Source: Escherichia coli (GTDB taxonomy: Bacteria; Pseudomonadota; Gammaproteobacteria; Enterobacterales; Enterobacteriaceae). Taken from it: DNA of 64,000 nucleotides. Below, piece after piece: positions 21,001 to 26,014 of this stretch. The first letter of the stretch is position 1, and every line of letters starts with the position of its first letter. Location of the stretch: the NCBI RefSeq assembly GCF_030013595.1, contig NZ_CP122768.1. One strand, 5' to 3'. The position numbers are program-made.

Positions 21001-24000
21001 ATAATTTGTGCACCAAACTCATGCCCGATAAACCTGCGCATCGGGCATATTTGCGTCGTTCAAACCTGTAATAGCGCCCTTCCCAGATAATCGTTCGTGT
21101 CCTTCACCCCCGGCAGCGCAAAAAAATAACCGCCGCCGATAGGTTTAACGTATTCCTCCAGCGCTTCGCCATTGAGCCTTTTTTGTACTGTCAGGAAGCC
21201 TTTTTCCAGATCGTGTTGGTAACAGACAAACAATAGCCCCATATCCAGTTGTCCGGAGTTGGTGACGCCCAACGAATAACTGTAGCCACGACGCAGCATC
21301 AGGCTGGACTCACTCTCTGGCGTGCGGGGATTCGCCAGCCGAATATGGCTGTCCAGCGCGATCACCTTCCCTTCCGGATCGCTGGCGTAATCGGGAACAT
21401 CATGCTCATGCTGCATTCCCAGCGGCGCACCGGTTTGTTTGTCGCGACCAAAAATCGTCTGCTGTTCTTTCAGTGGCGTTCTGTCCCAAAACTCCACCCG
21501 AAACTGAATCAACCGCACCGCCTGGTAGCTGCCACCGATTGTCCACGCAGGCTCCTGCTGATCTGCCGTTACCCACACCACTTTTTGCATCAACTTATCA
21601 TTCTGGCTATCGGGATTGGCAGTGCCGTCTTTGAAACCCAGCAAATTAATCGGCGTCTCTTTGCCTTTACTACGCGCCGCGTGATCGGAAATAAACCCTT
21701 CCCGCTTCCAGCGCACACTGAGCAAATCCGGCGTGTGTTTGATGATATCGCGCAGCGCATGGATCACCGTATCCTGGGTGTTGGCGCAAATTTGTAGCAA
21801 CACATCACCATGACATAATGCTGCATCAAGCGAGTCGTTGGGGAAACGCGTCATCTTCTGCAACTTTTTCGGCATCTGTGGAGCAAGACCAAACCGTTCA
21901 TCAAACAACGAGTGACCAACTGACAACGTGATGGTGAGATTATCGGGCGCAATGTAGCCGCCAAGAATGCCGGAATCGATTGGTGGCAGGCGCGGATTTG
22001 GCGTTTCTGGTGCCGCTCCGCCCTGAGTCAGAAAAGCAAAACGCTGAGTCAACAAGCGAAACAACCGTTCAAGTTCGGCTTTATCGCTGGCAAGCACATC
22101 AAACGCCACCAGCATCATTGCAGCCTGTTGTGGTGTCAGGATCCCTGCCTGATGCTCACCATAAAACGGCTGTTTCTCATTGCGTGCATCCGGTGAAAGC
22201 GTACCCGGCGCACTTTGCGTTTTTTGTGCATGAGCGACCGGACAACTTCCCGCAAGCGCCAGCGCACCAATCCCTTTCAGTAAACGTCGGCGTGACGGTT
22301 CATTCACGCCGTTTTCATCTTCATACTGCATAACGCTTAATCCAGCCCCAGCACACCGCGAAGTTGCGCCAGATCTTCCGCCAGCGCAGTAATCGGCCCT
22401 TTCAGCGCATTACGGTCAGCATCGGTCAATTTGTCGTAGGTTTCAAAACCGTCTTTAGTACGGTATTTCGCCAGAATGGTATCGACCTTTTTGAAGTTGG
22501 CATCGACTTTTGCCAGCAGTTCCGGGTTGGCTTTTTGTAGTTGTGGACGCAGCAGATCGACAATTTTCTGCGAGCCTTCAACGTTAGCCTGGAAATCCCA
22601 CAGATCGGTGTGGCTGTAGCGATCTTCTTCACCGCTGATTTTGCTGGCTGCCACTTCCTCAATCAGTCCGGCTGCGCCGCCGACCACTTTTGACGGAGGG
22701 AAAGCCAGTTCACTGATGCGTTTTTGCAAATCGACCACATCGGTATAAAGCTGGTCGGCATACTTATCCATCCCTTTAGTGGTGTTATCGCCAAACAATG
22801 CTTTTTCCAGACGGTGGAAACCGGTGAATTTTGGATCGGCGGCTTTTTGCTCGTAATCATCTTCACGGGCGTCAATGCTACCATCCAGATCGGAGAACAG
22901 TTCAGCAATCGGTTCAATGCGCTCATAGTGCTGGCGCGTCGGCGCATACAGTGCTTTCGCTTTTTCGATATCGCCTGCTTTAATAGCGTCGGTAAAGGCT
23001 TTGGTGTCGGTCACCAGCTGCGTGGTTTCCGCCATGACATACGCTTTATATGCAGTAATTGCACCACCAAGACTTAACAGCGCATCACTTTGCGCCGCAT
23101 CCGCCGTTGCTTCACCTTTAACGATCAACTTCCCTTTCGGGTTAGTCAGCAGACCGCAGGTCATATCGTATTCGCCAGGCTGTAAATTCGCCGTCATTTT
23201 CTGGCTAAAGCCAGGGGCGATATTTTCTCGCTCTTCCACCACCATCACGCCTTTGAGGATCTCCCACTCCAGCGCCTTCTGGCTGTGGTTCTGAATAATA
23301 AACTGTGTTTTCCCGGCGTTAACCGTAATGGTCATCGGTTCGCACTGCTTATCCGTCACGGTGACTTTGACTTGCGGAATATCGGCGGCGTTAGCCATAA
23401 AAGCAGAAGAGAACAGCGCAGCCACGCTCAACTGCAATGCGTTACGGCGGAAGTTAATGGTCATGACGAGACTATCCCTTTAAAATATGTTGTAACTAAG
23501 CAAGAGTTTGCGTCGTATTTGTTACGCGGAGCGAGACGCTGTCGCCCCTGCGCGTGGTGGCAGAGCAAATGCCACCAGCGCCGGGATGAGATAAATAAAC
23601 CAGACGGCGACTTCGCTGACACTTGGCGCTTCCTGATAGCCAAAAATCCCTTCCATCAGCGTGCCAAACAGCGAGTGAGTTGAGAGCACCGCGCTCATAT
23701 CGAAGGCGATTTCCTGAAAGTGGTTCCACAATCCGGCTTCATGAAATGCGCGAATGGCACCAGCCGCCAGCCCTGCGGCGACGAAGAGAATAAACAGGCT
23801 GGTCCATTTAAAAAATGCACCAAGATTGAGGCGAATACCGCCCCAGTAGAGCAGGAAGCCGAGCACCACGGCTGTAGCAAGACCGAGCATTGCACCCAGC
23901 GGCGGCCAGATCCCGACATCTTGTTGAAACGCCGCCAGCAGGAAAAAGACCGACTCCAGCCCCTCCCTTGCAACGGCAAAAAAGACCATCATCACCAGCG

Positions 24001-26014
24001 CCCAGCCATGATGATTCCCACGCTGCAATGCGCTATCGACTGCCTGCTCCAGTTGTACTTTGACGTTGCGCGACACTTTGCGCATCCAGAAAACCATCCA
24101 GGTAAGGATCACCACGGCGATCACCGCCACGATACCTTCAAACAGTTCCTGTTCTTTTTGCGGAAATTCGCCGGTGGTTTCGTTAATGAAGATACCCAAG
24201 CCCAGGCACAACGCAGCGGCAAGCAACACGCCAATCCACATCACACCAATCCATCGGCCTCGCTGGGTACGCTTAAGATAGCTGGCAATCAAACTGACAA
24301 TCAGCGCGGCTTCAAGTCCTTCGCGCAACATAATGAGAAATGGAACAAACATGCCACCCACCCTTAAACGTTTTTCTGAGTCAATCTATGCAAAGAAAAG
24401 TAAATCGCAGTGATAGCGATTATCATTACGGCAAAGAAAAATACAAGCGGAATGTTTATAAAATGATGTTGGAATGTAAACAAAGAGAGGTAATGGCAGG
24501 GGATATAAACGATTATTCCAGGTACAAAGATGGGATTGTTTACAACGAGCCATGTGTTCTTGCCAGATGCCGCGTAAACGCCTTATCCAGCCGACAAAAC
24601 TGTCCAGACTCAATGCATCAGAGCTTCCATGTAAAACTGATAAGCGGGTGTATCAAGCAATTTCGTCCATCCGCGATTATCAAATCTAACTTTTTGCCCG
24701 GAACATAATAACAGCTCGGGTGTTGGTGGCGTCAAAGTCGCTGAAGCGTTCCCCGAAGGCCAGGGCAGCCCACATGGATGTGGGCTGAGGGCGCGTCTTA
24801 CAGGACATTACCTCGCGCCCGACCCGGTAGCCGAAGGGGATAAGCTGAAGGTACCGCGCAGCGGCGATTTTGTTCGCCAGAGCCCGGGGTGCAGGGGGTG
24901 GCGGCGATTGGCCGCCCCCTGCACCATTCAATTTATATGGCGAGGCACATTAAGGGAGCGCAACCCGCTGCTGAAGCCAAACAAAACCGCCGCAGGCTAA
25001 GTCCCTTAGCTTTCCTGCAACCGTGACGGCGGAGCCGAATGATAGTGCGCATCGGCCTCGGCAAAGCGTTTTTGCATCGCCGCTGACGGCGCTTTACCCA
25101 GCAAACTAAACACTACAATCCCGATACTACCAAAGATAAAGCCCGGAATAATTTCGTACAGACCCAGCCAGCCGAACTGCTTCCAGACGATAACCGTCAG
25201 CGCACCGATGATCATCCCCGCCAGCGCACCGTTGCGCGTCATGCGTGACCACATCACCGAGAACAGCACCACCGGACCAAACGCTGCGCCAAAGCCTGCC
25301 CACGCGTAGCTCACTAAGCCCAGCACGCGGTTTTCCGGGTTTGCCGCCAGCGCAATCGCCACCAGCGCCACCACCAGCACCATCACTCGCCCTACCCACA
25401 CCAGCTCTTTCTGGCTGGCCTGTTTACGCAGAAACGCTTTATATAAATCTTCGGTAATCGCACTGGAACATACCAGCAGCTGGCAGCTTAACGTTGACAT
25501 TACCGCTGCCAGAATCGCCGACAGCAGAATCCCGGCAATCCACGGGTTAAACAGAATTTGCGCCAGTTCGACAAACACGCGTTCAGCGTTCTGGTTTACC
25601 GCACCTGCTACCGCCGGGTGCTCATTAAAGTAAGCGATACCAAAGAAGCCGACAGCCACCGCCCCTGCCAGGCAGAGGATCATCCAGGTCATACTGATAC
25701 GACGCGCATGGACAATGCTGTGGTGAGAATCCGCCGCCATAAAACGCGCCAGGATGTGCGGCTGCCCGAAGTAACCCAGCCCCCAGCCCATCAGCGAGAT
25801 AATGGCAACAAAGTTCAGCCCTTTGAGCATATCGACGTTTTCGATGCTCTTTTGTTTGATCACTTCCAGCGAGTCGCCAAACCCACCAACGCTAATGATT
25901 ACGATAACCGGCGTCAGGATCAGGGCAAAAATCATCAGGCTGGCCTGTACAGTGTCAGTCCAGCTCACTGCAAGGAAGCCACCAATAAAGGTGTAAAGGA
26001 TCGTCGCCGCAGCG

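What the first reader, a model, noticed from the sequence alone, without database searches (positions are those of the whole stretch)
23522..24430. Intact efeU with upstream Fur box shows this is not a K-12 lineage locus
efeU is a continuous 276-aa ORF, whereas K-12 carries a frameshifted efeU by established knowledge. A good Fur-box match (15/19) lies 60-80 bp upstream. Together with the accessory genes and the uninterrupted gfc promoter, this argues for a non-K-12 background with a functional EfeUOB iron uptake system.
Basis: partly seen in the sequence, partly recalled or inferred. Interest (0 to 1): 0.3.

Follow-up and report, generated by a model that had tools for sequence, protein, structure and literature searches.

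The report
Ordinary intact efeUOB iron-uptake operon
The window carries a normal, unbroken copy of the E. coli efeUOB low-pH iron-uptake operon with its conserved Fur repressor site; this is the usual state in E. coli and only laboratory K-12 strains have the broken efeU, so the finding is correct but ordinary.

Summary
efeU lies at 23522..24352 on the minus strand and is an uninterrupted 276-codon gene. Its protein is 100% identical to EfeU of E. coli O157:H7 Sakai, the UniRef entry EFEU_ECO57. K-12 MG1655 lacks one G of the GG at window 24246-24247. That shifts the frame at codon 36 and gives a stop at codon 37; the window has both Gs.

The 15/19 Fur-box match CGTAATGATAATCGCTATC lies at 24412..24430, 60-78 nt upstream of the ATG. 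It is the best match in the 64 kb window, where about 0.19 matches of this quality are expected by chance. The same site is base-for-base identical in K-12, so it says nothing about lineage.

The "not K-12" conclusion is right and overdetermined:
- The window is only 97-98% identical to K-12 over 54 kb.
- It lacks K-12's IS1D at the gfc promoter and IS3D beside dgcT.
- It carries genes K-12 lacks here, matching O157 Sakai ECs_1272-1279, at 1-10142.

Intact efeU is a weak marker. The K-12 allele occurs in only 368 of 5417 complete genomes, and all 60 inspected are laboratory strains. efeO and efeB are also intact. All of this is already known biology, so interest is low.

The parts
23522..24352 (-). 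efeU, an intact 276-codon gene plus stop (Ftr1-like inner-membrane iron permease)
   Evidence: The protein is 100% identical to O157:H7 Sakai NP_309290.1 and to EFEU_ECO57. It scores above the cut-off of the NCBIfam equivalog NF041756.
24246..24247 (-). The GG (codons 35/36, ATT GGT) of which K-12 has only one G; this is the site of the K-12 frameshift
24311..24325 (-). First REGLE (RExxE) motif, codons 10-14
   Evidence: with the sequence.
23954..23968 (-). Second REGLE (RExxE) motif, codons 129-133
   Evidence: with the sequence.
24412..24430 (-). Fur-box match CGTAATGATAATCGCTATC (15/19), 60-78 nt upstream of the efeU ATG. A GATAAT hexamer that looks like a -10 element lies inside it.
   Evidence: best match in the window, 0.19 expected by chance; identical in K-12, O157 Sakai and HCP5S3_I2. 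The -10 reading is my own inference; the promoter scan found no promoter at its threshold.
24390..24404 (+). CpxR-like direct repeat GCAAAGAAAAGTAAA (9/10 to GTAAA-N5-GTAAA), a consensus-level match only
   Evidence: This is weak evidence: the window holds 85 sites at 8/10 or better. CpxAR regulation of efeUOB is known only from the title of Cao et al. 2007 and from PMC9600279.
22337..23464 (-). efeO, intact, 375 aa, periplasmic component
   Evidence: NF007697, 774 bits; 2 aa differences from O157 Sakai.
21060..22331 (-). efeB, intact, 423 aa, DyP-type peroxidase with the Tat motif SRRRLLK
   Evidence: (TIGR01412, 615 bits against a cut-off of 428).
55088..55096 (.). The 9-bp site upstream of gfcA where K-12 carries IS1D; it is unoccupied here, so the gfc promoter is uninterrupted
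   Evidence: the alignment blocks abut exactly at K-12 1049777/1050546, the ends of IS1D..
1..10142 (.). Genes absent from the homologous K-12 region: a chaperone-usher fimbrial cluster, an SDR oxidoreductase, a winged-helix regulator, a small hypothetical protein and an EAL/CSS phosphodiesterase. They are collinear with O157 Sakai ECs_1272-1279.

Best explanation
This is the ordinary wild-type efeUOB (ycdNOB) operon of a non-K-12 Escherichia coli.

What the proteins are. EfeU is an Ftr1-type inner-membrane permease with two REGLE motifs. EfeO is periplasmic. EfeB is a Tat-exported DyP-type peroxidase. Together they import ferrous-derived iron, chiefly under aerobic, acidic, iron-poor conditions.

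Regulation. Transcription is repressed by Fe2+-Fur, most likely through the conserved Fur box 60-78 nt upstream of the ATG, and is further modulated by CpxAR and pH.

Relation to K-12. K-12's broken efeU is a recent 1-bp deletion that, among the rows inspected, was found only in K-12 and laboratory strains, and this window does not share it.

Shown here:
- efeU, efeO and efeB are intact.
- EfeU is identical to the O157:H7 protein.
- The Fur box is conserved.
- The background is not K-12.

Inferred from the literature: transport function, Fur repression and acid induction.
For: The 1-bp K-12 deletion is absent here.

EfeU is 100% identical to O157:H7 Sakai EfeU. The exact sequence is the UniRef representative EFEU_ECO57 and was seen on at least 1000 contigs.

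All 13 nucleotide differences from Sakai efeU, and all 12 from frame-restored K-12 efeU, are synonymous. This indicates purifying selection and a recent K-12 lesion.

Both REGLE motifs are present. EfeO and EfeB are full length, with 2 and 9 aa differences from O157.

The Fur box is the best match in the window and is invariant across four strains.

Literature:
- The K-12 efeU frameshift makes the system non-functional (PMC2808357).
- EfeUOB is Fur-regulated, is found in O157:H7 and Nissle 1917, and promotes growth at low pH and low iron (PMC3832793).
- efeU and efeO belong to the Fur-2 iModulon (PMC10164565).

The non-K-12 background is shown. The K-12 allele census is.
Against: Nothing contradicts this reading. 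There are limits. EfeB differs from the O157 protein at 9 residues whose effect is unknown. The simple sigma-70 scan found no promoter at its threshold in the intergenic region. I could not read Cao et al. 2007 to confirm that this exact 19-mer is the Fur site they mapped.
Confidence: 0.95

Rival explanations
1. The locus is a K-12 derivative in which efeU has been repaired, by engineering or spontaneous reversion, so intact efeU would not indicate a different lineage.
For: In frame-restored K-12 efeU the encoded protein is identical to the window's, so efeU alone could not exclude this.
Against: The window differs from K-12 at about 1,260 aligned positions over 54 kb (97-98% identity). It lacks IS1D and IS3D precisely, and it has 10 kb of genes that K-12 lacks at this position. 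The closest complete genomes are pig and environmental isolates at 99.4-99.9% identity.
Confidence: 0.005
2. efeU is intact but the system is silent or non-functional in this strain for another reason, such as substitutions in EfeB, altered upstream regulation, or loss of the Tat pathway elsewhere in the genome.
For: EfeB has 9 aa differences from O157 Sakai. The sequence further than about 130 bp upstream of the ATG is variable between strains. This window shows other gene decay: IS10 in pgaB and two 1-bp deletions in genes of the 1-10142 region.
Against: Five of the 9 EfeB differences from Sakai are shared with the differences from K-12's intact EfeB, and the remaining four sites also vary between Sakai and K-12, so all nine look like ordinary allelic variation. 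The promoter-proximal 130 bp, including the Fur box, are conserved. Only synonymous changes have accumulated in efeU.
Confidence: 0.04
3. The Fur-box match is a chance AT-rich resemblance and the real regulatory site lies elsewhere.
For: The match is only 15/19. The promoter scan gave no supporting -35/-10 call.
Against: About 0.19 such matches are expected in the whole 64 kb window, which scales to roughly 0.002 in the 653-bp intergenic region (my scaling). The site is invariant across strains whose flanking DNA diverges. The operon is known to be Fur-regulated.
Confidence: 0.05

Closest known systems
EfeUOB (YcdNOB) of E. coli O157:H7 (Cao et al. 2007, Mol Microbiol 65:857) and of E. coli Nissle 1917 (Grosse et al. 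2006, Mol Microbiol 62:120)
   Same: The gene order efeU-efeO-efeB is the same. EfeU is 100% identical to the O157:H7 Sakai protein. EfeO differs at 2 residues and EfeB at 9. The Fur box and the proximal promoter are the same.
   Different: There are only synonymous or allelic differences. The DNA is 95.5-97% identical to Sakai across the region. Sakai has an extra 1344-bp ORF (ECs_1262) between putP and efeU that is absent here.
efeU pseudogene of E. coli K-12 (b4490)
   Same: The position between putP and efeO is the same, as are the upstream region and the Fur box.
   Different: K-12 lacks one G after nt 105 and terminates at codon 37. The window has the intact frame.
Ftr1p/Fet3p high-affinity iron uptake of Saccharomyces cerevisiae
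   Same: EfeU is an Ftr1-family permease (TIGR00145) with two RExxE motifs. The analogy is stated in PMC3832793.
   Different: The bacterial partners are EfeO and a DyP peroxidase, EfeB, rather than a multicopper oxidase.

Membership tests
EfeU / Ftr1 iron permease | Scores above the curated cut-off of the family and equivalog HMMs | tested here: met
   NF041756 scores 331.2 bits against a cut-off of 255; TIGR00145 scores 351.7 against 303.8.
EfeU / Ftr1 iron permease | Two RExxE (REGLE) motifs | tested here: met
   REGLE at residues 10-14 and 129-133.
EfeU / Ftr1 iron permease | Full-length reading frame equal to an EfeU reported as functionally characterised | tested here: met
   276/276 identical to O157:H7 Sakai EfeU (EFEU_ECO57).
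EfeU / Ftr1 iron permease | Iron transport activity | not testable with these tools
   This needs 55Fe uptake or growth assays.
EfeUOB tripartite operon | efeU followed by intact efeO and a Tat-signal DyP peroxidase efeB on the same strand | tested here: met
   efeO lies at 22337-23464 and efeB at 21060-22331, with the motif SRRRLLK.
Fur-regulated promoter | A 19-bp Fur-box consensus match near the promoter, better than chance and conserved | tested here: met
   15/19, the only match at that level in 64 kb, with 0.19 expected; invariant in 4 strains.
Fur-regulated promoter | Fur binding and iron-dependent repression | not testable with these tools
   Literature only: searches report the operon as Fur-regulated.
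E. coli K-12 lineage | 1-bp deletion in efeU codon 36 | tested here: not met
E. coli K-12 lineage | IS1D between gfcA and cspH, and IS3D beside dgcT | tested here: not met
   read against the annotations: both IS elements are absent and the junctions are precise.
E. coli K-12 lineage | Near-identical nucleotide sequence | tested here: not met
   96.96-98.4% identity over the five collinear blocks.

The most novel reading that the evidence does not exclude
The region further than about 130 bp upstream of efeU is a hot spot of structural variation between E. coli lineages. In many genomes the alignment breaks at window ~24455-24517. Sakai has a 1.3-kb ORF inserted there, and this window has ~100 bp that K-12 lacks. 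This variation might tune efeUOB expression in a lineage-specific way, beyond the conserved Fur/Cpx core. Nothing here shows any regulatory effect.
Probability: 0.05. Interest if true: 0.2.

Novelty: already known. Interest (0 to 1): 0.05.

Why it matters
It matters very little. The result serves as a sanity check for annotation: this strain should be annotated with a functional efeUOB operon, whereas K-12 carries a pseudogene. It also shows that the window comes from a non-K-12 E. coli, which many other features of the window show more strongly. The K-12 frameshift, the Fur regulation and the function of EfeUOB were published in 2006-2007.

Tried and rejected
Repaired K-12 origin. I considered it and rejected it because the window diverges from K-12 by 2-3% and lacks K-12's IS elements.

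O157 / phylogroup E origin. The EfeU proteins are identical, so I checked. The DNA is only 95.5-97% identical to Sakai, so this is a different lineage. The closest complete genomes are pig isolates HCP5S3_I2 and LCP30S3_I5 at 99.9%.

Reading Cao et al. 2007. I wanted to confirm the mapped Fur and CpxR sites, but the paper is not held.

Sigma-70 promoter scan of the intergenic region. It gave no hit at its threshold, so the promoter position remains an inference.

CpxR consensus scan. It gave a 9/10 site at 24390-24404, but the background rate is high, so I report it only as a consensus match.

Rfam scan. It found no RNA family inside the finding's coordinates.

Antisense ORFs overlapping efeU, for example 23720..24367 on the + strand. 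These are mechanical ORFs with no supporting evidence.

Full report
**Observation**

The finding's coordinates hold a minus-strand gene at 23522..24352 (sequence). From the ATG at 24352 it encodes 276 aa, beginning MFVPFLIMLREGLE. It scores above the curated cut-offs of the NCBIfam EfeU equivalog NF041756 (331 bits against 255) and of TIGR00145 (352 against 304). Immediately downstream on the same strand lie efeO (22337..23464, 375 aa, NF007697 at 774 bits) and efeB (21060..22331, 423 aa, a DyP peroxidase, TIGR01412 at 615 bits). EfeB carries the Tat motif SRRRLLK. EfeU has both REGLE motifs, at residues 10-14 and 129-133.

**Comparison with K-12**

In MG1655 (NC_000913.3) efeU (b4490) is annotated as a pseudogene. 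A pairwise alignment shows one indel inside the gene. K-12 has ATTGTGTG where the window has ATTGGTGTG, after nt 105 in codon 36. The K-12 translation therefore reads ...RGRWIV*. The window keeps both Gs, which are cc at 24246-24247 on the + strand. When the K-12 frame is restored, all 12 substitutions between the window and K-12 are synonymous. So are all 13 substitutions between the window and O157:H7 Sakai. The EfeU protein is 276/276 identical to Sakai NP_309290.1 and to that of the closest genome, HCP5S3_I2. The exact sequence is the UniRef representative EFEU_ECO57 and occurs on at least 1000 contigs. This pattern indicates strong purifying selection and a very recent lesion in K-12.

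**How diagnostic is an intact efeU?**

An 81-bp K-12 query centred on the deletion matched exactly in 368 of 5417 complete E. coli genomes. All 60 rows inspected are K-12 or laboratory derivatives, such as MG1655, C600, J53, DH5alpha, DH1, NCM3722 and ER strains. The other 5049 genomes fall in the 95-99% identity band, where an 81-bp match that differs only by the extra G would land; other differences were not excluded. Intact efeU is therefore the normal state of the species. It excludes K-12 and nothing more.

**Fur box**

On the coding strand the 19-mer CGTAATGATAATCGCTATC (24412..24430) matches GATAATGATAATCATTATC at 15 of 19 positions. It lies 60-78 nt upstream of the ATG. It is the only match of 15/19 or better in the window, and Markov simulations expect 0.19 per 64 kb. 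Scaled to the 653-bp intergenic region, that is roughly 0.002.

The site, and almost all of the ~130 bp upstream of the ATG, is identical in the window, K-12, O157 Sakai and HCP5S3_I2. Further upstream the Sakai sequence is unrelated. The box is therefore real and conserved, but it is equally present in K-12 and does not bear on lineage.

The literature held in the library supports the biology:
- EfeUOB is described as Fur-regulated and as promoting growth at low pH and low iron (PMC3832793).
- efeU and efeO are in the Fur-2 iModulon (PMC10164565).
- The K-12 frameshift is cited as making the system non-functional (PMC2808357).
- efeU is listed as negatively regulated by CpxR (PMC9600279).

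I could not read Cao et al. 2007 itself. The simple sigma-70 scan found no promoter at its threshold. My own reading is that a GATAAT hexamer inside the Fur box could be the -10 element; that is inference. A 9/10 CpxR-like repeat lies at 24390-24404, but such matches are common.

**Background of the window**

BLAST of the window against K-12 1,036,000-1,115,000 gives five collinear blocks covering window 10143-64000 at 96.96-98.4% identity.
- The blocks abut exactly at the ends of K-12's IS1D (1049778-1050545). The 9-bp target site (window 55088-55096) is present once, so the gfc promoter is uninterrupted. gfcA-E, etp and etk are open.
- The alignment ends at K-12 1094245, the edge of IS3D.
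- Window 1-10142 has no counterpart in the K-12 region. It encodes a chaperone-usher fimbrial cluster, an SDR oxidoreductase, a winged-helix regulator, a small protein and a CSS-EAL phosphodiesterase.
- That set is collinear with O157 Sakai ECs_1272-1279.

The closest complete genomes are two UK pig isolates at 99.9% identity. Sakai is only 95.5-97% identical at the DNA level.

**Mechanism**

These steps are inferred from established knowledge; none was tested here.
- EfeU is the Ftr1-like permease.
- EfeO is the periplasmic iron-binding component.
- EfeB is the Tat-exported haem peroxidase that oxidises Fe2+.
- Fe2+-Fur bound at the box represses the operon when iron is plentiful.
- Acid and Cpx status modulate expression.

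**Verdict**

The biology is already known and is the species norm. Interest is low.

**Noticed in passing**

- An IS10 (15644-16972) disrupts pgaB. It has the terminal sequences I recognise from memory as IS10 ends, a 9-bp duplication GGTCTGGTT, a 402-aa IS4-family transposase and an RNA-OUT match.
- Two single-base deletions in homopolymer runs, relative to HCP5S3_I2, frameshift the fimbrial protein gene (~4544) and the SDR gene (~5910).
- The putP-efeU spacer is structurally variable between strains.

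Noticed in passing
window 15644-16972 (pgaB fragments at 14535-15647 and 16956-17891): A complete 1329-bp IS10 is inserted in pgaB, the PGA biofilm polysaccharide deacetylase gene. Its ends are CTGATGAATCCCCTAATGATTTTGG and CTGAGAGATCCCCTCATAATTTCCCC, which I recognise from memory as IS10 ends. It is flanked by a 9-bp target duplication GGTCTGGTT and carries a 402-aa IS4-family transposase and an Rfam RNA-OUT hit at 15689-15758. None of the 25 best-matching complete genomes has it at this site; the closest genome shows ~22 matching places, probably other IS10 copies.
   Followed up: partly
window ~4544 (C run) and ~5910 (T run): Relative to the 99.9%-identical genome HCP5S3_I2, the window has two 1-bp deletions in homopolymer runs (CCCC against CCCCC, TTTTTTT against TTTTTTTT). 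They truncate the fimbrial protein gene (400 aa against 444) and split the SDR oxidoreductase gene into ORFs 5560-5895 and 5826-6350. They could be real pseudogenes or homopolymer sequencing errors.
   Followed up: partly
window 24455-25005 (putP-efeU spacer): The spacer is structurally variable among E. coli. Many genomes align only from about 100-165 bp upstream of efeU. K-12 lacks ~100 bp around 24769-24872. O157 Sakai carries an extra 1344-bp hypothetical ORF (ECs_1262) there. A GC-rich 15-bp-stem hairpin lies at 24888-24925, just downstream of the putP stop.
   Followed up: partly
window 1-10142: Genes absent from the homologous K-12 region, where K-12 has IS3D: a chaperone-usher fimbrial operon, an SDR oxidoreductase, a winged-helix regulator (the collinear Sakai gene is annotated grvA), a 163-aa protein with no family hit (the collinear Sakai gene is annotated FidL-like) and a CSS-EAL c-di-GMP phosphodiesterase (pdeT). 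They are collinear with O157 Sakai ECs_1272-1279 at ~96.6% identity.
   Followed up: partly
window 19678-19871 (+), 43156-43234 (+), 53916-54338 (-): Rfam gathering-level hits: Ysr251, opposite the minus-strand ORF at 19673-20737, which corresponds to phoH by collinearity with K-12; naRNA4 (CssrE) at 43156-43234; and a cspA-type thermoregulator 5' UTR, probably that of cspG.
   Followed up: no
window 37315-37488: There is a small structural difference in the ymdF region. About 140 bp of K-12 (1068329-1068470) has no counterpart, and a short gap also separates the alignment blocks with HCP5S3_I2. That genome annotates a shorter con-10 family stress protein here.
   Followed up: no
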